In this document: positions 23,825-31,333 of the stretch, piece after piece
Numbering within the stretch: position 1 is the first letter of the stretch
How the letters are laid out: each line of letters begins with the position of its first letter
Virus record (IMG/VR): IMGVR_UViG_3300049927_000072
Location: 1 to 64,000 of that record
Direction: 5' to 3' (one strand)
DNA length: 64,000 nt
Origin: a virus
The notes under the pieces: model-generated
The model's input: only the letters and a program-made list of their open reading frames with translations
What the model was told of the DNA's origin: nothing
The model's database searches: none
Translations under genes and position numbers: made by a program

Positions 23825-24142
23825 ATGATAGCTCCCCGGTGGATGACAATTCCACGATGGAAAGAATATCTCAAGCTGCTCACACTTAACGTGGCGATTG
23901 GTGTGGCGGCTGTCATTGTTGCCCCATGGGTCGGGGTGTTGATAAACCGATACTGGGAATGGGTGTACTGGCTATTTGACCGGGGGCACGTATGACGCTG
24001 TACGACTACGTGAGATACCACATCGAGCGCCAGTACCGGCCGCGGTCGAATATTAAGCAAGCAAATGATGATCGCATAAACGAGATGTCCGATGTCAAAC
24101 TATTACAATGGATCAGCGATTATCTGGATCGGAGCGAGTAAC

Positions 24143-24376
24143 ATGCTGACGCACGAAGCGGCCATCATACACCTGACAAAGCTTCGCAACATCTCCGCCG
24201 AAGCGGCGAAGGCTGCGCAGCGGCATAACAGGCGGCGACGATTTACTCAACGTCGTGAGGCGATGGCCGTCGTGAGTTACTTGCGCGATGTCGAAGCTCT
24301 TGACTTCGCGATTGCGGAGTTGACCGATTGGTGGCTGACGGCGGACCCGGAGGCAAGAAAGGCTGCGAGGAAATAA
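24143..24376 (+). CDS. hypothetical protein
   Basis: GGAG SD, ATG 24143. Confidence 0.55.
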   Translation: MLTHEAAIIHLTKLRNISAEAAKAAQRHNRRRRFTQRREAMAVVSYLRDVEALDFAIAELTDWWLTADPEARKAARK

Positions 24377-24585
24377 TGGCGACAACTTACACACTGAACG
24401 AGGCCGTCGGCCGCGCCATCGAGCGCGCTCGACAGGATGTCGACAGCTACTGCGTATTTCGCAATCGCGAGAGAGATTGCATCGTACGCCATGCTTGGGC
24501 TACTCCGCCGCGCGGTGATTTCGAACGCGTCTGCACCGCGTCATGCAGCGACACGACTAGCACGGTCGTAGTGAGGTTTTCGTGA
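24376..24585 (+). CDS. hypothetical protein
   Basis: Stop/start-coupled. Confidence 0.55.
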   Translation: MATTYTLNEAVGRAIERARQDVDSYCVFRNRERDCIVRHAWATPPRGDFERVCTASCSDTTSTVVVRFS

Positions 24586-24806
24586 ACAGTAGCCCGGCCC
24601 GATATCAGTTCAAAGCAGTCAAGGCGTCGCCGCACGGTGGTCAAGAGGCGTTCTACGCTCAGGTGCGGCGCAATGACTGGGCCGACGGCTACTGGCTCAC
24701 GATTGCCAACCGCTTCGGAAATAAAATCTCATACATGACGCGCGAGTACGCTATCGCCGCCGCGGAATATTGGGCCGTGCAGCATGGGATGAATGTCAAT
24801 GAATAG
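24582..24806 (+). CDS. hypothetical protein
   Basis: GTGA-coupled. Confidence 0.6.
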   Translation: MNSSPARYQFKAVKASPHGGQEAFYAQVRRNDWADGYWLTIANRFGNKISYMTREYAIAAAEYWAVQHGMNVNE

Positions 24807-25026
24807 GCGCGCCTTCCTGCTCGGATCGGCCGCGGTGCTTACCGCCGCGGCAATCCCTGCGGCGATCCCTGCAAGCAATCTCGGCATCCTTGGTGGCGAG
24901 GCCCTCAGCATCGCTGTGGATTTGTCCGGGCCGGTTTGGTATGCGAAGAATGGCGGCCCGTGGATGCTTCTCGAAGAAGTGGTCCCTACAGGAAAAAGGT
25001 ATTTCGAAGGGAAGGTAACCCAATGA
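24793..25026 (+). CDS. small protein with twin-arginine-like signal
   Basis: MNRRAFLLGSAAV. Confidence 0.6.
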   Translation: MSMNRRAFLLGSAAVLTAAAIPAAIPASNLGILGGEALSIAVDLSGPVWYAKNGGPWMLLEEVVPTGKRYFEGKVTQ

Positions 25027-25247
25027 GCAGCCTGTACATCATCATCCGACAAGCGCCGATGTCATGCGACAACGGCGAAGACTGGCCTGCAATGTTCGCG
25101 GTATGGGAACGGCCGCACAATGGTCGCGGCGGGGTCAAGGTCAGTCAACACGCAACCGAAGACGCAGCGCTCGAAGCGAAGGCGCGGTACGAGATCGGCG
25201 ACATGCGGCAACACCGCAATGGTCAGAAGGTCGGCATAGCTAAATGA
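25023..25247 (+). CDS. hypothetical protein
   Basis: ATGA-coupled. Confidence 0.55.
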   Translation: MSSLYIIIRQAPMSCDNGEDWPAMFAVWERPHNGRGGVKVSQHATEDAALEAKARYEIGDMRQHRNGQKVGIAK

Positions 25248-25519
25248 CAAACGCGCTCAAGTCGAAAGACGACGTGTTTATCGGCTTGTCTCTGTACGAA
25301 CGTCTCTATCTCGTGAGCGTGCTCGGCTCATGGAAAAAGAACTTCTCGCCGCACGGCGCGCAATGGGAAGCCGAGATGTGCGATGCGCTGATTGCGAAGT
25401 TCACGCCCACAGGGAAATAAGTCCTATGCTGAAAATTTTAATCGCGCTTCGCGCAGCTATTAACGATGTATCCCCAGATGCCTTGACAGACCGCGGACAG
25501 GCAAGTTAGACGAGCAAGC

Positions 25520-25786
25520 ATGAAAAACCGGGGGGCAGAACGCTACGACGATTACGGGCACCCGCGCCCTATTGATCCGGTCCGGCTCCGCCGTCCGCTC
25601 GGAAAATTTCTTCGCATCCTCACGCTATGCGCCGCCCTTGCCTTCGTGCTCGCTGTTCTCGTCCGCTGCGAGACGGTCGAATGCAATAAGCGCACGCAGT
25701 GGTGTCCGGCTGATCCGCGCGCCGAAGTGCCAGCGCCTGACAAGTTTTTTGTCGGGCCATCATCAACCCCAAAGAGGTTCAAATGA
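25520..25786 (+). CDS. membrane protein
   Basis: One TM; TTGACA promoter immediately upstream. Confidence 0.6.
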   Translation: MKNRGAERYDDYGHPRPIDPVRLRRPLGKFLRILTLCAALAFVLAVLVRCETVECNKRTQWCPADPRAEVPAPDKFFVGPSSTPKRFK

Positions 25787-26112
25787 AACGACGCGGCCGG
25801 AAAAAGCGCCACTACAAGACGCGCACCAAGCTTGAAAAACCTTTCTGCGTAATTGCGGCAACCTCGGTCAACCGCTCGTGGTTCGAAACTGAAGCGGAAG
25901 CTATCGAGCACGCAAGCACGCTTCATAAAGGAAGCGCGAAATTGGAATGGTTGACCCGCCACTACGGCGGCAAAGAGAACATTCCCCCGTGGACAATGGA
26001 TAAACTAAAACGGGATGCAGACGGGCCGCAGCCGACTTTTGCAGTCGTGCGCGTTACGGCAAAGGTTGGGTCGCCACCTGCGCCGCCGCGCTTGGTCACG
26101 TTATATAAATGA
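25783..26112 (+). CDS. hypothetical protein with very basic N-terminus
   Basis: ATGA-coupled, GAGG SD. Confidence 0.6.
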   Translation: MKRRGRKKRHYKTRTKLEKPFCVIAATSVNRSWFETEAEAIEHASTLHKGSAKLEWLTRHYGGKENIPPWTMDKLKRDADGPQPTFAVVRVTAKVGSPPAPPRLVTLYK

Positions 26113-26509
26113 GCACGGGTCTCCCATACGTCGTGGTCTGGACCGAGATCGGTGACGACTGCACTCACGTGCGGCACATCAAAGTCTCGACCGAAAAGGC
26201 AGCGAAGAGGATCGCGAAACTATTGCTCGCCAAGGACCACGAAGGCTTTGTGGAGGTTGTCAGTGACAACTAGACGGAAGATCAGCACATCACCTGCACT
26301 GGGCGCGCCGTACTGCGGTATGCGAATGCACGTGAGTGACGAAGAGCGCGCGGTCTACATGGAGAAAAACGGCTGGCCGTGTTCAAGCCGCGGTAACCTA
26401 AAAACAATTCCCGACTTGAGTATTCCTGAGTTGCGCGCTATTGCTGGCCTGTACGCAAAAGTTCTCGCAGACGAAGCGCAGAATATTTATCAACTCGAAA
26501 GGGCAGTCC

Positions 26510-26710
26510 GTGAGCGCGTCTAGGCCAACAAAGCAGGAAAGCATTCATCCGCGCGCGTACCGCGGCGACGGTGTCAAGAAAAACACGTGCGCCTCGAAAA
26601 ATAAAGGCGTGACCGCTCGGAAAATTGCTGCGCTCGAAAAGCACCTTGAAGTTCACCCGACGGACAGGCATTCGCAATCGCATGTTCAGGCGCTGAGGGG
26701 CGCGTTGTAA
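26510..26710 (+). CDS. small basic protein with uS15-like helix motif
   Basis: KIAALEKHLEVHPTDRHSQ; GTG start after AAGGG. Confidence 0.55.
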   Translation: MSASRPTKQESIHPRAYRGDGVKKNTCASKNKGVTARKIAALEKHLEVHPTDRHSQSHVQALRGAL

Positions 26711-26798
26711 TGGGTGCGCTATGGTGGTTCGAAACTATTTTGATATTCGCGCTGTTCGCATCGTACCTGACTAGCCTCGCTCTGCAACTCGGCTGGAT

Positions 26799-26900
26799 AT
26801 GAAACGCTCGGCGATCAAAAAAGATTTGAGGTCACCGAAGTACCGGCAGCGCGTCGTGCGAAATAAGAAACGGTACACGAGGAAGGGAAAGCAAAGATGA
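26799..26900 (+). CDS. ArfA-like 33-aa basic protein (alternative ribosome-rescue factor-like)
   Basis: MKRSAIKKDLRSPKYRQRVVRNKKRYTRKGKQR; ATGA-coupled at both ends. Confidence 0.65.
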   Translation: MKRSAIKKDLRSPKYRQRVVRNKKRYTRKGKQR

Positions 26901-27041
26901 CGTACTCTGCACGCGATAATCAGGTTTTCGCTCTCGATGAATTGTTCTTGACAGTGCACGAGACCGAACCAAATCGCATGGGCCTCATAACCGTCCGCGA
27001 GCAGGCTGCGCTCGTCGCAGATGTCTTGAACGGCACACCGC

Positions 27042-27224
27042 ATGCCGAATAGAGGCAATCACGTTCCGCGCGAAAGCAAGAGCAAATGCGTGCGCAACCT
27101 GACCACGGGCGACGTTCGGCGCGTCACGAACGCAGAGGCTGATCAGCTAACTCAAGACGGTTGGAATTTCGTGCCCAAGAGCGCGTGGCGCGCCGATATT
27201 CGCAAACCAGTTGTAGAGGCTTAA
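27042..27224 (+). CDS. small conserved phage protein
   Basis: VRRV...EA..L...GW.FVPKS.W. Confidence 0.65.
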   Translation: MPNRGNHVPRESKSKCVRNLTTGDVRRVTNAEADQLTQDGWNFVPKSAWRADIRKPVVEA

Positions 27225-27226
27225 AA

Positions 27227-27439
27227 ATGGCGCAAAATAAAATTCCTACGAGCGCAGTGAGCATGTCGTGCGAGAAACTTCTCGCCTGTGCCAAAGCCGC
27301 AAAAGCTGCTTTGATCGATGAAATCAACGCTGGCAATCGAGACTGGGCAAAGCTGCAAATGCTGCTAGACGCTTATTCAGACTATCAGACCGGGGCCGAT
27401 GCGCTCGGTTACGGCGGATCAATCGAAAACCACGCTTAA
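27227..27439 (+). CDS. hypothetical protein
   Basis: GAGG SD, ATG 27227. Confidence 0.55.
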   Translation: MAQNKIPTSAVSMSCEKLLACAKAAKAALIDEINAGNRDWAKLQMLLDAYSDYQTGADALGYGGSIENHA

Positions 27440-27469
27440 ACTCTTACCAAAATTTGAACCGGGGGGTTC

Positions 27470-27910
27470 ATGGACAATAATATTCTCGGGCCCGGCGATT
27501 GCGATTTTTCGCGCGTGCTGGCGACGGTCTACGGCCGCTCAATCTATCTAGGCGAGCACAACGGCATCGCGATATTCACACGCGTGAGCGTAGAGGATTA
27601 CGAGTGGGCCTGTCAGTGGCGCTGGCGGTTCACGATGGATAAGCGCAAAAAGAAATACTACGCGACACGTAACACCCGCATCCGTTCCGAACACCGGCAA
27701 GTCACGCTCTTCCTGCACAAAGAAATTCTGATAGATCGTATGCACGCTGGACAGCCTTCCTACGAGCATCACATCGGGGATCACGGCGACGGCGACAGTC
27801 TCAACAATGTCCGGACAAATCTGTCATGGGCAACCGCGTCCGACAATTGCAAATCGGCCAAGAGCCGCGCCGCGCAATGCCCGGTGACGAAGAGGTTCAT
27901 CGCAGCATGA
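27470..27910 (+). CDS. HNH endonuclease
   Basis: VS.EDYEW, LFLHKEI, DHGDGDSLNN.R.NL...T..DN. Confidence 0.85.
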   Translation: MDNNILGPGDCDFSRVLATVYGRSIYLGEHNGIAIFTRVSVEDYEWACQWRWRFTMDKRKKKYYATRNTRIRSEHRQVTLFLHKEILIDRMHAGQPSYEHHIGDHGDGDSLNNVRTNLSWATASDNCKSAKSRAAQCPVTKRFIAA

Positions 27911-28326
27911 CGCACCCCAGTTTTATCCGAGTGCTCGCCCGCGCCGACGCTGCTATGGAAGCGCGCGTCCAAACGCCAGAGTGTCAAATCGTTCCCCCGC
28001 TGCGTGAGATCGTGCATGCCGCGCAACTTGCGGTGATCGGCTCCGGCGATACGTCGCAGGCTCTGATCGACGAGAGCGAAAAGCTCGGATGGTGGATGTC
28101 AGCTGCGCTTGATGATAAAAATGTCTGCGCCGAAATGAAATCCAACATCAACGCATGGTTTGTCGCGCTCGAAAATTTTAACAACGTGAGGCGCATTGCA
28201 GCCGCGCTGCCGAAAGCATACGCGCAGGTCTATGCGGAGATGCCGTTCGAAGTGAAACCGACTACCAAACGCAACAGCAAACGGGGGGTACCCAATGCTA
28301 AACGTAGGAAGAAGCGGAAAGCGTAA
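27907..28326 (+). CDS. hypothetical protein
   Basis: ATGA-coupled. Confidence 0.55.
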   Translation: MTHPSFIRVLARADAAMEARVQTPECQIVPPLREIVHAAQLAVIGSGDTSQALIDESEKLGWWMSAALDDKNVCAEMKSNINAWFVALENFNNVRRIAAALPKAYAQVYAEMPFEVKPTTKRNSKRGVPNAKRRKKRKA

Positions 28327-28807
28327 GCCTACCTCGCTCTCGCGAGCGGTTTTCTATCTCGTCGTTCTTGCGATCCTGATAATCTTCGCTCAAATATTCG
28401 GCTCTAAGGCGCACGCCAGCCCGCGCTCGATGCAAGGCGTCGCCAATGTGGGGACGATTGCGCACCCGGCCGGGTGCCCGCGTAGCCTTTTCTGTGCGTG
28501 CGGTCTCGCGCAATACTGGGGCATCTGGCGTGCCGAATTGAACAAGGTGAGCAACTGGCCACACGAGTTCAGTCGCGCTAGTGGCCCGGGCGTCGGCGTC
28601 GCGGCCGTACGCATAGGTGGCGGCCATCATGATCACGTCATCGGTATCGTTGGCGGCTCGCCCGGCGCTTGGGAAGTCGTTGACTTCAACTCAGGCAAGG
28701 GACAGTCTCACCACTACACCGCCGCAGGCTTTCCCGGATATATTTTCCTCAACGTCAAAGGGCAGGGGTTCGCATCAAATGACAATTCACGCGCAAACAA
28801 TTATTGA
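28295..28807 (+). CDS. signal-anchored CHAP/NlpC-P60-like Cys/His protein (putative peptidoglycan hydrolase)
   Basis: N-terminal TM and AHA, PAGCP..FCACG, NW, GVAAVR..HV, NSG. Confidence 0.65.
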   Translation: MLNVGRSGKRKPTSLSRAVFYLVVLAILIIFAQIFGSKAHASPRSMQGVANVGTIAHPAGCPRSLFCACGLAQYWGIWRAELNKVSNWPHEFSRASGPGVGVAAVRIGGGHHDHVIGIVGGSPGAWEVVDFNSGKGQSHHYTAAGFPGYIFLNVKGQGFASNDNSRANNY

Positions 28808-29444
28808 TCGACAAGAAAGTCTCAAGCGTGAACTACTCGATGCGCCGCAATGCAGCTGGTCTGAAGCGGTCTTAAAAAACTACCGCTTCTACTTCACAGG
28901 CGTGCCGTGCGTACGCGGGCACATCTCGAAACGCAGCACATCGGACAAGGTGTGCGTGGAATGCAAACGAACTCGCAAGAACTACTACCAGCCTAAAAAG
29001 AAGACAGACCTGCCAGCCGCGATCCTGTGCGGCGTCGAAGTGCGGATCGGCGAGCTTCGCGAATACGCCCGGAGCGGCAGATTGCCGTTCCAAGTTTTAG
29101 AGAAATCCGGTCTATTGTCGCCGGGCCTCGATAGCGAGATCGCCGGATATTACATTCGGGAAGGGATGGATCATAAGACCGGGCGCGTCTCGTGGGGCAT
29201 ATTCCAGCGCAACTGCGGCACGCGCATTGCATCATTCCTGCCGGGCTTCCCGCGTGTGGTATCAAACGTGAAAGACCTATACGATGTCGCCTGCGAAAAC
29301 CGAAGAGAGAACATCGCCGGACGAGTTGAGAAATTATCTGCGCGACAATTACGGGACATGCTTGAGAGGCACGGCATGCACGTGTGCTCGACTAGGGTGG
29401 CTCGGGACGGCGTGCCCTCACTGGCAGCCACTGGAAGTTTCTAA
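28779..29444 (+). CDS. protein with Zn-binding YFTG.PC..GH...CVEC module
   Basis: Motif; ATG 28779 with GGGG SD. Confidence 0.6.
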   Translation: MTIHAQTIIDRQESLKRELLDAPQCSWSEAVLKNYRFYFTGVPCVRGHISKRSTSDKVCVECKRTRKNYYQPKKKTDLPAAILCGVEVRIGELREYARSGRLPFQVLEKSGLLSPGLDSEIAGYYIREGMDHKTGRVSWGIFQRNCGTRIASFLPGFPRVVSNVKDLYDVACENRRENIAGRVEKLSARQLRDMLERHGMHVCSTRVARDGVPSLAATGSF

Positions 29445-29472
29445 CTACGCAACTCAGAAAGGAAATGCAAAA

Positions 29473-29667
29473 ATGTTCGACACACCCCTCAAAGTGATGC
29501 TCTGGATTACGGTCGCGATACTTGCCCTCGCTTTCTTTTTCGGGCACGCCTCGGCACAGGTGATCGGGATCACTGATGCGAATGGCGGCACGACAATTGT
29601 AGTACCGCTCGGTTCGGCCGCGCCGCACATTATCGACGTGGAAGCGAAGCGCAAAGGGTGCGAGTAA
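29473..29667 (+). CDS. small secreted protein
   Basis: Signal peptide ending ASA. Confidence 0.55.
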   Translation: MFDTPLKVMLWITVAILALAFFFGHASAQVIGITDANGGTTIVVPLGSAAPHIIDVEAKRKGCE

Positions 29668-31031
29668 TGTCAGAGACCATGACCCGCCGCCCTGATCTGT
29701 ACCAAGTTCGCGCGCGTGAGATCGCGATAGAGAAAGGTCTCGACCCCGATGCGCGCGTCGGTGACGGGCGCGGCGCTCCGCAGTGGTGCTCATTCCGGCA
29801 AGCCGCTCGCGACGAGCACAGCGCACGCGAAGCGAAAGCAGCATCCGGGCAAATCGCAGCGATGCCCGCGTATCAAGCGCCTGAATACACGAACGCACCG
29901 TTGGCGATCTTCGGTGAGGACCACGACGAGAACACGATCCTGCAAATGAAGAATTGCATGTCAGTCGGCAATGTGGTCGGCGGGGTGATTTGCGCCGACG
30001 GTCATCTTGGCTACGCGCAGCCGGTCGGCGGAGTGATCGCCTATGATAAGCAAATCAGCATCTCAGGCGTCGGCTTCGATATCGGCTGCGGTAACATGGC
30101 CGTGAGGCTTGCCAGAAATTTCTTCGATATATCCAACGATGAAATTGGGATGTTTGCGCGCGATATCGCCAGCGAGATTTCGTTCGGTGTCGGCCGCATC
30201 AACGAAACGAAAGTTGAGCATGAATTGTTCGACGATGTTGAGGCGTGGCGCGCGAGTGGCATGGAAGACTACAAACCGAAAGCACGGGCGCAACTCGGCA
30301 CGGTTGGTTCAGGCAATCACTACGTGGACTTGATGCGCGACGAGCTAGGCTTTGTCTGGATCGGCGTGCACTTCGGATCACGCGGTCTCGGCCACACGAG
30401 TGCAACAAAATATCTCAAAGCGGCTGGCGGCAAAGATGGGATGCACGTGCCGCCCGCCGTGGTCGACGAGAGCAGTGAGATCGGCGTGCGGTACCTTGCG
30501 GCGATGGAACTTGCCGGGCGCTACGCTTATGCCGGGCGCGAGTGGGTCGTAGAACACGTGCGACAGATTGTCGGCGGCGAAGTTCTCGACAGCGTGCACA
30601 ATCATCACAACTACGCGTGGAGGGAATTGCACAACGGGCGCGAGCTTTGGGTCGTACGCAAAGGCGCAACGCCAGCATTTCCGGGACAGCGAGGATTTGT
30701 CGGTGGCAGCATGGGCGACGATGCTGTGATTATTGAAGGCGTCGAAAGCGATTGGTCACGTCGTGCGCTTTTCTCGACAGTGCACGGTGCGGGCCGTTTG
30801 TTCGGCCGCAAGGAAGCCAAGCGACGTTTCACTAAAGATGAAATGGATGGATGGCTACAGCGGCGCGGCGTGACGTTGGTTGGTGCTGATCTCGATGAAA
30901 GCCCGATGGCATATCGCCGCCTACCAGAAGTGCTCGCCGAACATTTAGATACGATCATCGTACGTCATGTGCTGCGGCCGTTCGCGGTCGTCATGGCGGG
31001 GGAAGGCGAGTTCGATCCATTTAAGGATTGA
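29667..31031 (+). CDS. rtcB: RtcB family RNA 3'-phosphate/5'-OH ligase with N-terminal extension
   Basis: DGH.G...PVG, GFDIGCG, QLGT.G.GNHY, H.GSRG.G, HHNY, RKGAT, GSMG, HGAGR, DESP.AY. Confidence 0.95.
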   Translation: MSETMTRRPDLYQVRAREIAIEKGLDPDARVGDGRGAPQWCSFRQAARDEHSAREAKAASGQIAAMPAYQAPEYTNAPLAIFGEDHDENTILQMKNCMSVGNVVGGVICADGHLGYAQPVGGVIAYDKQISISGVGFDIGCGNMAVRLARNFFDISNDEIGMFARDIASEISFGVGRINETKVEHELFDDVEAWRASGMEDYKPKARAQLGTVGSGNHYVDLMRDELGFVWIGVHFGSRGLGHTSATKYLKAAGGKDGMHVPPAVVDESSEIGVRYLAAMELAGRYAYAGREWVVEHVRQIVGGEVLDSVHNHHNYAWRELHNGRELWVVRKGATPAFPGQRGFVGGSMGDDAVIIEGVESDWSRRALFSTVHGAGRLFGRKEAKRRFTKDEMDGWLQRRGVTLVGADLDESPMAYRRLPEVLAEHLDTIIVRHVLRPFAVVMAGEGEFDPFKD

Positions 31032-31303: not shown

Positions 31304-31333
31304 CCGCCCGGGGCAACCCGGGCGGCTTTGTTT
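31304..31333 (+). terminator. intrinsic terminator
   Basis: CCGCCCGGG-GCAA-CCCGGGCGG-CTTTGTTT. Confidence 0.75.

What the first reader, a model, noticed from the sequence alone, without database searches (positions are those of the whole stretch)
26799..26900. Unannotated 33-aa ArfA-like minigene
Seen: MKRSAIKKDLRSPKYRQRVVRNKKRYTRKGKQR, ATGA-coupled on both sides. From memory the E. coli ArfA core is [35 protein letters not shown], giving a shared pattern K..AI...L..P.[FY]RQRV..NKK...Y.RKGK. Known: ArfA binds the empty mRNA channel of stalled ribosomes and recruits RF2, and is mainly beta/gamma-proteobacterial. This copy lacks the inhibitory C-tail and the GKGS segment. Inference: a phage ribosome-rescue factor or mRNA-channel blocker.
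Basis: partly seen in the sequence, partly recalled or inferred. Interest (0 to 1): 0.75.

Follow-up and report, generated by a model that had tools for sequence, protein, structure and literature searches.

The report
Phage-encoded 33-aa mini ArfA homologue
This soil phage carries a real 33-codon gene from a very large, virus-specific family of tiny proteins related to the bacterial ribosome-rescue factor ArfA; it probably plugs the empty mRNA channel of stalled ribosomes, but phage ArfA genes have been annotated before and none has been tested.

Summary
The ORF at 26799-26900 (+) is exactly as described: 33 aa, with ATGA stop/start overlaps on both sides, in a run of small co-oriented genes of a tailed phage from a soil metagenome. 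It is not a chance basic peptide. A family HMM built without it scores it at 52.3 bits (E 4e-15); the next best of 1,841 six-frame segments in the window scores 4.5 bits. The family is large (950 clusters at 50% identity) and virus-specific: at least 119 viral contigs carry the motif, against 5 chance matches in 596 Gb of bacterial genomes. It partly corresponds to Pfam DUF7230 and is homologous to ArfA: hhalign probability is 80-88%, the only PDB hits are ArfA, and intermediates pass Pfam's ArfA cut-off, including a 33-aa peptide 71% identical over the first 24 residues. The window's peptide keeps ArfA's A-site core (P-x-Y-RQRV) and basic tunnel tail. It lacks ArfA residues 1-11, two of the three residues that hold RF2 Trp319, the C-tail and the truncating hairpin. 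Ribosome binding is therefore likely, while RF2 activation is open. Phage ArfA is already annotated (RXM g10, J2-1, HTVC027P gp30, which is expressed) but untested. Verdict: new member of a known kind; moderate interest.

The parts
26799..26900 (+). Mini-ArfA gene: 33 codons plus the TGA stop
   Evidence: Searches give the ORF. The family HMM built without it scores 52.3 bits, E 4e-15. Pfam ArfA is its only Pfam hit and ArfA chains are its only PDB hits.
26802..26834 (+). Residues 2-12 (KRSAIKKDLRS). They align to ArfA K12-D22, the remnant of the N-terminal minidomain. ArfA residues 1-11 have no counterpart; A18->K8 and L19->D9.
   Evidence: HMMER and hhalign alignments. Residue roles come from Demo et al. 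2017, PMC5378476.
26835..26858 (+). Residues 13-20 (PKYRQRVV). They align to ArfA P23-E30, the A-site and decoding-centre core that forms the beta-sheet extension with RF2. P, R, R, V, V are invariant in alignment A1, but that invariance was imposed by the search pattern.
   Evidence: loci chosen by this motif. Independent support: conservation of RNP.A..L outside the pattern, P/K/Y >=90% in A3. PMC5378476: Pro23 packs on A1492/A1493, and His21-Glu30 lies in the A site.
26859..26897 (+). Residues 21-33 (RNKKRYTRKGKQR), 8 of 13 basic. They align to ArfA K31-G46, the mRNA-tunnel segment, with a 3-residue deletion (GKG). The KH motif is KQ here.
   Evidence: alignment. PMC5378476: aa 31-48 occupy the tunnel. 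The KH motif is described in PMC8012679.
26710..26802 (+). Upstream 30-aa hydrophobic ORF whose TGA overlaps the mini-ArfA ATG (ATGA). Context only; function unknown.
   Evidence: no Pfam hit.
26897..27052 (+). Downstream 51-aa ORF whose ATG overlaps the mini-ArfA TGA (ATGA). Context only; function unknown.
   Evidence: no Pfam hit.

Best explanation
The ORF is a real phage gene for a minimal, diverged homologue of the bacterial alternative ribosome-rescue factor ArfA. It belongs to a very large virus-specific clade of 33-80 aa proteins that partly overlaps Pfam DUF7230. Shown: the homology and the family membership. Inferred: the peptide is made constitutively, because it has an ordinary stop codon, no truncating hairpin and no tmRNA-controlled tail, probably from the same long rightward transcript as the neighbouring small genes. 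Inferred from ArfA structures: its basic C-terminal 13 residues thread into the mRNA entry tunnel of ribosomes whose tunnel is empty (ribosomes stalled at the 3' end of broken mRNAs). [quoted passage not shown] Most likely outcome, not shown: a host class-I release factor is recruited, the peptidyl-tRNA is hydrolysed without a stop codon, and the ribosome is freed for phage protein synthesis at a time when host and phage nucleases produce many truncated mRNAs. I put about 0.9 on real gene plus ArfA homology, about 0.75 on binding the ribosomal tunnel and A site, and about 0.5 on release-factor-dependent rescue. The figure below is for the whole statement.
For: The ORF and its coupling are. A family HMM built without the window scores 52.3 bits, E 4e-15, with the runner-up at 4.5 bits. 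All 119 viral motif hits lie in short ORFs that share extra conservation outside the searched pattern (RNP.A..L). The profile search finds 950 clusters at E<=1e-3. Only 5 matches, all chance, occur in 596 Gb of bacterial genomes. Link to ArfA: PF03889 is the only Pfam hit; all six PDB hits are ArfA, E 0.008; tblastn finds the true Salmonella arfA between zntR and mscL. hhalign of family against ArfA gives 88.5% (E 2.7e-6) and 80.4%. Intermediates pass Pfam's ArfA cut-off of 25.5 bits: L134 33-aa ORF 29.7, RXM g10 29.6, XM05 36.9, and J2-1 41.3, which also passes DUF7230 at 28.6. L134 is 71% identical to the window's peptide over residues 1-24. Residues with assigned ribosome or RF2 roles are kept: P23, F25 (as Y), R26-Q27-R28-V29, N32-K33-K34, Y39, R41-K42-G43-K44. 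Precedent: the authors of PMC12753301 call pelagiphage HTVC027P gp30 ArfA (PF03889) and report it highly expressed early and late in infection; RXM g10 is annotated ArfA; IMG names 42-aa relatives ArfA.
Against: On its own the peptide is below Pfam's ArfA cut-off (13.9 against 25.5 bits) and does not match DUF7230 at all. The part of ArfA that switches RF2 on is not conserved. Residues 1-11, which include Ile11 and the h44/S12 contacts, are absent. Ala18, where even A18T abolishes release, is Lys. Two of the three hydrophobic-patch residues that hold RF2 Trp319 are charged (L19->D, L24->K). The tunnel tail runs 13 residues after the core, against 17 in the shortest ArfA reported active (truncation at Asn47), and KH is KQ here. 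The host is unknown. If it is an alphaproteobacterium, as the portal relatives hint, its RF2 has never been shown to work with any ArfA. There is no direct evidence of expression for this gene.
Confidence: 0.5

Rival explanations
1. Same binding site, opposite outcome. The peptide occupies the empty mRNA tunnel and A site of stalled or vacant ribosomes but cannot open a release factor. It would then act as a competitive blocker of the host's own rescue systems (tmRNA-SmpB, ArfA, ArfB) or as a ribosome-silencing plug. That could keep phage nascent chains from being ssrA-tagged and degraded, or contribute to host shut-off.
For: The RF2-activating minidomain is missing or altered: no residues 1-11, A18->K, L19->D, L24->K. 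ArfA(A18T) still binds and recruits RF2 but does not release (PMC8012679), so binding and activation can be separated. K/R at the Ala18 position and K at the Leu24 position are the rule across the phage clade. SmpB, ArfA and ArfB all compete for the same tunnel.
Against: Blocking rescue would trap ribosomes that the phage itself needs. BrfA, which shares almost no sequence with ArfA, still recruits and activates RF2 by beta-strand addition plus a basic tail, so a different N-terminus does not preclude activation. Intermediates such as RXM g10 and L134 grade smoothly into true ArfA, which suggests a conserved function.
Confidence: 0.22
2. A generic basic nucleic-acid-binding peptide, for example a DNA-condensing or RNA-binding factor with no ribosome specificity, whose likeness to ArfA reflects shared composition only.
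For: The peptide is 42% Lys/Arg. In many marine podoviruses the family ORF lies inside a scaffold-like gene next to the coat gene, a position that could suit a virion-internal peptide. HMMER reports a composition bias of 10.3 bits on the family hit.
Against: The conserved positions are not merely basic: N, I/V, A, L, P, Y/F, V, V, N are fixed or nearly so, and they coincide with the ArfA residues that contact the decoding centre and RF2. The only PDB matches among 177,635 sequences are ArfA. Relatives pass the curated ArfA threshold.
Confidence: 0.06
3. Not a functional gene: a chance or decaying ORF.
For: It is very short, has no clear Shine-Dalgarno sequence upstream, and no RNA data exist.
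Against: 52.3 bits to a family HMM that excludes it, with every family-conserved position kept except one Ala (K7). The start and stop are intact and precisely overlap the neighbouring ORFs.
Confidence: 0.02

Closest known systems
Bacterial ArfA (YhdL; Pfam PF03889), E. coli/Salmonella type; structures 5MGP, 5MDV, 5U4I, 5H5U
   Same: An alignable core spans ArfA residues 12-45: N/S-A-I...L..P.[FY]RQRV..NKK...Y.RKGK. It comprises a basic tunnel segment plus an A-site segment. It is a small protein that is unstructured off the ribosome.
   Different: 33 aa instead of 72 (about 55 aa in the active form). It has no residues 1-11. A18->K, L19->D, L24->K, E30->V. It has a 3-residue deletion (GKG), and KH is KQ. 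It has a normal stop codon instead of a non-stop mRNA made by RNase III/hairpin cleavage (fold z = 0.38) and no hydrophobic tail. It is encoded by a virus. It scores below Pfam's ArfA cut-off.
Pfam DUF7230 (PF23876), function unknown; an example is the unannotated 36-aa ORF of Acinetobacter phage 133 (48.8 bits)
   Same: Same virus-borne mini-protein clade. 32 of 117 relatives retrieved with the window's family profile match DUF7230, best E 3.9e-10. Consensus: RNP[IV]AKDLRTPKYR.RVV.NKKKY.RK.
   Different: The window's own peptide gives no DUF7230 match; it matches ArfA instead. It has S-A for N-P, K7 in place of the nearly invariant Ala, and an ArfA-like RYTRKGK tail. No paper in the library searched mentions DUF7230, so I found no published link to ArfA.
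Phage genes already annotated as ArfA: Citromicrobium phage RXM g10, Pseudoalteromonas phage J2-1, pelagiphage HTVC027P gp30
   Same: Phage-borne, short, with the same core motif. RXM g10 carries the phage-type RNPLA..L..P.FRQR together with the ArfA-type KGRGSYTRKGR. J2-1 lacks GKGS as the window's peptide does and passes both Pfam cut-offs. HTVC027P gp30 is transcribed early and late (PMC12753301).
   Different: RXM g10 and J2-1 are longer (60 and 51 aa) and pass the ArfA threshold here. I did not retrieve HTVC027P gp30; its PF03889 domain is the authors' report. The window's peptide is shorter and sub-threshold. None of them has been tested biochemically.
BrfA (Bacillus subtilis) and ArfT (Francisella): non-homologous release-factor-dependent rescue factors
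   Same: For BrfA (PMC8012679): the same working principle is expected, a basic C-terminal tail in the empty mRNA tunnel plus a beta-strand added to RF2 domain 2, with a KH motif in the tail.
   Different: No sequence relationship. They show that the RF-activating N-terminal part can differ widely, so the altered N-terminus here does not by itself rule out activation.

Membership tests
ArfA (Pfam PF03889) | Profile match at or above the curated gathering score (25.5 bits) | tested here: not met
   13.9 bits, E 0.037; 11.2 bits in the six-frame search. Close relatives do pass: L134 33-aa ORF 29.7, RXM g10 29.6, XM05 36.9, J2-1 41.3. Profile-profile probability is 80-88%.
ArfA (Pfam PF03889) | Mid-region in the A site: Pro23 on A1492/A1493, and the F25-R-Q-R-V29 strand pairing with the RF2 domain 2 sheet | tested here: met
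   P13-K-Y15-R-Q-R-V19 aligns without gaps. These positions are fixed across the family. Roles are from PMC5378476. Only the sequence was tested, not binding.
ArfA (Pfam PF03889) | Positively charged C-terminal segment long enough to fill the mRNA tunnel (aa 31-47 suffice; truncation after Met40 inactivates) | tested here: inconclusive
   13 residues follow the core, 8 of them basic, aligned up to ArfA G46 with a 3-residue deletion; KH is KQ. That is shorter than the shortest ArfA reported active, but more densely charged.
ArfA (Pfam PF03889) | Hydrophobic N-terminal minidomain (aa 1-20: Ile11, Ala18, Leu19; plus Leu24) that orders on the ribosome and opens RF2 via Trp319 | tested here: not met
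   There is no counterpart of residues 1-11. A18->K8, L19->D9, L24->K14; only I16, L20 and F25 (as Y) are kept.
ArfA (Pfam PF03889) | Synthesis from a truncated non-stop mRNA (hairpin/RNase III site inside the ORF; full-length tail inactive; repression by tmRNA) | tested here: not met
   The in-frame TGA follows codon 33 and overlaps the next ATG. There is no tail, and no stable hairpin beyond shuffled controls (z = 0.38).
ArfA (Pfam PF03889) | RF2-dependent, stop-codon-independent peptidyl-tRNA hydrolysis on non-stop ribosomes | not testable with these tools
   This needs a biochemical or genetic assay.
DUF7230 (Pfam PF23876) | Profile match at or above the curated gathering score (27 bits) | tested here: not met
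   No match at E<=10. 32 of 117 relatives match it, best E 3.9e-10; phage 133 ORF 48.8 bits, P0223 32.9 bits.
Virus-borne mini-ArfA clade (defined here by alignment A3) | Motif [KR][NS][PA][IV]A[KR].L..P.[YF][RK].RV[VI].[NDS]KK in an ORF of about 33-80 aa on viral DNA | tested here: met
   52.3 bits, E 4e-15 to the HMM built without the window. 65% identity to P0264 and 71% to the L134 ORF. One departure: K7 where at least 90% of members have Ala.

The most novel reading that the evidence does not exclude
The virus-specific clade, of which this 33-aa peptide is among the shortest members seen here, is not a simple copy of ArfA's function. It has lost the RF2-opening minidomain while keeping the decoding-centre and tunnel parts. 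It may therefore work as a phage-made plug that outcompetes tmRNA-SmpB, ArfA and ArfB on stalled ribosomes. Alternatively it may recruit release factors by a different contact, and do so in hosts such as Alphaproteobacteria, where arfA was found in 0 of 2,376 genomes. Either way it would be a widespread and so far unstudied way for viruses to control the fate of stalled host ribosomes.
Probability: 0.25. Interest if true: 0.75.

Novelty: new member of a known kind. Interest (0 to 1): 0.42.

Why it matters
If phage mini-ArfAs are active, they give a 33-residue minimal form in which to separate the two steps: sensing an empty mRNA tunnel and activating a release factor. They would also show that phages routinely bring their own ribosome-rescue or rescue-blocking factor. 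Many of these phages infect hosts that lack ArfA, including SAR11, Roseobacter, Erythrobacter, Citromicrobium and Ochrobactrum; ArfA was found in 0 of 2,376 alphaproteobacterial genomes (PMC11633108). The family is large (at least 950 clusters at 50% identity) and frequently unannotated or mislabelled in GenBank phages. Linking Pfam DUF7230 to ArfA would therefore give a testable function to many 'hypothetical' phage minigenes. For this window alone the result is an annotation gain, not a new principle.

Tried and rejected
- NCBIfam gave no hit.
- PHROGs gave only two weak unknown-function families for the window's peptide; phrog_20887 matches 13 of 26 relatives.
- blastn of window 24000-30000 against phages found no match, so no close sequenced relative is available.
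- tblastn of a marine member (L006 ORF) against phages found no match at E<=0.01.
- `complex prediction` of E. coli RF2 with the peptide (alignment A3) returned no verdict, score 0.00. This is not evidence either way.
- `look-up of sequencing runs` listed no RNA holder. One soil-metagenome DNA run holds the stretch and may be its source.
- tblastn of all 93 window ORFs of at least 45 aa between 18 and 38 kb, RtcB included, against the 120 family loci gave no hit at 1e-5. So there is no conserved neighbourhood, and RtcB proximity is not a family trait.
- The promoter and terminator scan was at background level.
- The second motif scan, for the window's own subtype, returned one locus, L134.
- The Atlas look-alike search gave a weak lead to DUF7230: 16% of members, score 0.91.
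- I did not attempt structure prediction of the lone peptide, because ArfA is disordered off the ribosome.
- The frame-selection test on the embedded copies favours the small frame, but it is partly circular because the loci were chosen by the motif.
- I rejected the 'chance basic peptide' and 'generic nucleic-acid binder' readings, for the reasons given under the rival explanations.

Full report
**1. The observation.**
The sequence at 26799-26900 (+) reads ATG...TGA and translates to MKRSAIKKDLRSPKYRQRVVRNKKRYTRKGKQR. The ATG overlaps the TGA of a 30-aa hydrophobic ORF (26710-26802). Its own TGA overlaps the ATG of a 51-aa ORF (26897-27052).

The window is part of a 75.9-kb IMG/VR virus record. 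It encodes a DNA polymerase, helicase, exonuclease, primase, RtcB, large terminase, portal, major head protein and tape measure, so it is a tailed phage. From about 18 kb rightwards the genes run on the + strand, and the minigene sits in a run of small co-oriented ORFs about 2.8 kb upstream of RtcB. The only sequencing run found to hold the stretch is a soil metagenome. The nearest portal relatives are alphaproteobacterial siphoviruses (Roseobacter phage RDJL3 48%, PhiJL001 45%). The host remains unknown.

**2. Is it more than chance?**
Yes. Every match lies in a short ORF that shows further conservation outside the pattern: [KR]NP[IV]A..L just upstream, and a basic tail downstream.

The same pattern in 596 Gb of bacterial and archaeal genomes gave 5 matches. 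None has the extended motif; four lie inside much longer frames and one is a 23-codon fragment, so all are chance. A profile of 26 members found 950 cluster representatives (clustered at 50% identity) at E<=0.001 among 1.84 billion proteins, nearly all 33-90 aa long.

An HMM built from 116 of those relatives, with the window's sequence left out, scores this ORF at 52.3 bits (E 4.2e-15) against all 1,841 six-frame segments of the window. The second best scores 4.5 bits. The ORF is therefore a real member of a large, virus-specific family.

**3. Relation to ArfA.**
- On its own the peptide hits only ArfA in Pfam, below threshold (13.9 against 25.5 bits).
- It hits only ArfA in the PDB: six chains, E 0.008-0.026, aligned over residues 2-32 with one 3-residue gap.
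- tblastn against the phage collection also picked up the genuine Salmonella arfA between zntR and mscL.
- Profile-profile comparison of the phage family with 16 enterobacterial ArfAs gives 88.5% probability (E 2.7e-6), or 80.4% with the larger alignment. The register is N14-A-I-E-A-L-L-H-D-P23[11 protein letters not shown]34.

Intermediates close the gap:

| Protein | ArfA, bits (cut-off 25.5) | DUF7230, bits (cut-off 27) | Note |
|---|---|---|---|
| L134 33-aa ORF | 29.7 | - | Shares the window's N-terminal half (71% identity over 24 residues) and has ArfA's KKGKGSY.R |
| Citromicrobium phage RXM g10 | 29.6 | - | |
| Erythrobacter phage XM05_102 | 36.9 | - | |
| Pseudoalteromonas phage J2-1 | 41.3 | 28.6 | Passes both cut-offs |
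| Acinetobacter phage 133, unannotated 36-aa ORF | - | 48.8 | |

Of 117 family members, 32 match DUF7230 and 4 match ArfA at E<=0.01. The phage clade is therefore a diverged branch of the ArfA superfamily that Pfam has partly catalogued as DUF7230. The window's peptide lies between the two models. No paper in the library searched mentions DUF7230.

**4. Anatomy against the ArfA structures.**
The roles below come from Demo et al. 2017 (PMC5378476) and the 2021 review (PMC8012679).
- His21-Glu30 lies in the A site and extends the beta-sheet of RF2 domain 2.
- Pro23 packs against A1492/A1493.
- Residues 31-48 fill the mRNA tunnel through redundant basic contacts, and a KH motif binds a pocket there.
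- ArfA truncated at Asn47 works; truncated after Met40 it does not.
- The N-terminal minidomain (aa 1-20) orders only when RF2 opens.
- Leu19, Leu24 and Phe25 hold RF2 Trp319.
- Ala18 is buried against Ile11 and C1914, and A18T still recruits RF2 but gives no release.

The window's peptide keeps P13 (=P23), Y15 (=F25), R16-Q17-R18-V19, N22-K23-K24, Y26 (=Y39) and R28-K29-G30-K31 (=R41-K44). Eight of its last 13 residues are basic.

It differs in these ways: no counterpart of residues 1-11; K8 for Ala18; D9 for Leu19; K14 for Leu24; a 3-residue deletion (GKG); KQ for KH; and it ends about where ArfA G46 lies. K/R at the Ala18 position and K at the Leu24 position are typical of the whole phage clade.

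The ORF has a normal stop codon and no hairpin more stable than shuffled controls (z = 0.38). So the tmRNA-controlled non-stop expression of bacterial arfA does not apply here.

**5. Most likely mechanism.**
- Shown: homology, family membership, and retention of the A-site and tunnel residues.
- Inferred: the peptide senses ribosomes whose mRNA tunnel is empty and sits in the A site.
- Most likely but untested: it recruits a class-I release factor to free the ribosome.

That function would suit a phage whose infection produces many truncated mRNAs. The phage's own RtcB RNA ligase points to RNA damage during infection, but that association is not general: none of the 120 family loci shares any neighbour with this window.

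The main rival is a non-activating plug that blocks host rescue. It is favoured by the altered RF2-activating part. It is disfavoured because such a plug would trap ribosomes that the phage itself needs, because the family grades smoothly into true ArfA, and because BrfA activates RF2 with an unrelated N-terminus. My odds are rescue about 0.5, blocker about 0.22, other ribosome-related roles about 0.2, non-specific binder 0.06, and not a gene 0.02.

**6. What is known already.**
- Bacterial ArfA is restricted to Gammaproteobacteria (699 of 2,704 genomes), some Betaproteobacteria (37 of 1,000) and a few Bacillus; it was found in 0 of 2,376 Alphaproteobacteria (PMC11633108).
- Phage copies have been annotated: RXM g10 (PMC8953757), J2-1 in GenBank, and IMG names 42-aa relatives ArfA.
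- Pelagiphage HTVC027P gp30 was reported as ArfA (PF03889), with high transcript levels early and late in infection (PMC12753301).
- I found no functional test of any phage copy.

The idea of a phage ArfA is therefore not new. Three points are not stated in anything I could find: the size of the virus-specific clade, its overlap with DUF7230, and its systematic change in the RF2-activating residues.

**7. Verdict.**
The gene is a new, unusually short and sub-threshold member of a known kind. Interest is moderate (0.42): it is not surprising to a specialist who knows the annotated phage ArfAs, but it offers a directly testable minimal rescue factor and a functional lead for a large DUF. The scan had flagged this same stretch in another window read (e1-6097965) and as part of a proposed RtcB/ArfA/uS15 module (e1-6098721). 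I could only partly test the module idea: the S15 likeness of ORF 26441-26707 is weak (E 0.0037), and I saw no family-wide linkage to RtcB.

Noticed in passing
L006:2679-2807, L010:7603-7725, L011:2386-2499, L024:3302-3430, L013:7255-7398 and about 40 more loci; L001:2489-2614 (Roseobacter phage CRP-13): In most marine podovirus contigs the mini-ArfA/DUF7230 ORF (40-48 aa) is not a separate gene. It lies in another reading frame inside a 300-340 aa ORF, within an acidic low-complexity stretch. In CRP-13 that ORF is gp52, directly upstream of the coat gene, so it is probably the scaffold. Across 45 distinct DNA versions the small frame is better conserved (72% against 55% amino-acid identity), and third positions of the small frame vary most. 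The test is partly circular because the loci were picked by the motif. This is a possible overlapping gene.
   Followed up: partly
L131:1498-1635 (+) (Pseudomonas phage pf16); L132:1417-1641 (Salmonella phage Arash gp99c); L002:2495-2605 (Acinetobacter phage 133): Clear ArfA or DUF7230 genes in GenBank phages are missed or mislabelled. The pf16 ORF (72.6 bits to ArfA) is unannotated and overlaps an annotated opposite-strand 'hypothetical' gene, pf16_199. Arash gp99c (67.8 bits to ArfA) is labelled 'ribosomal protein L2'. The 36-aa ORF of phage 133 (48.8 bits to DUF7230) is unannotated and lies about 1.7 kb downstream of rnlB.
   Followed up: partly
window 26441-26710 (+): An 89-aa ORF two genes upstream of the minigene gives a weak sub-threshold match to ribosomal protein S15 (PF00312, E 0.0037, 17.8 bits against a cut-off of 31; residues 60-85 match model positions 27-52). 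Another first-stage note called it uS15-like. I did not examine it further.
   Followed up: partly
window 29658-31031 (+) and 31304-31325: An RtcB RNA ligase (phrog_1075, E 8e-74) whose match starts only at residue 69, so it carries an extra N-terminal segment. It is followed by the only strong terminator-like hairpin of the region (9 G-C pairs plus a T run). No tRNA genes are present anywhere in the window.
   Followed up: no
window 27470-27910 (+): A 146-aa ORF with an HNH_3 endonuclease motif just under Pfam's cut-off (24.2 against 24.8 bits), between the minigene run and RtcB. It may be a homing endonuclease.
   Followed up: no
window 26710-26802 (+): A 30-aa strongly hydrophobic ORF (MGALWWFETILIFALFASYLTSLALQLGWI) is translationally coupled to the mini-ArfA start. 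It looks like a single transmembrane helix and has no family match.
   Followed up: no
P0264 (NCBI SDR49483.1): A 44-aa relative, 65% identical to the window's peptide, is annotated as a hypothetical protein on a 9.08-Mb contig of Rhizobiales bacterium GAS113. It may lie in a prophage, which would hint at soil alphaproteobacterial hosts.
   Followed up: no
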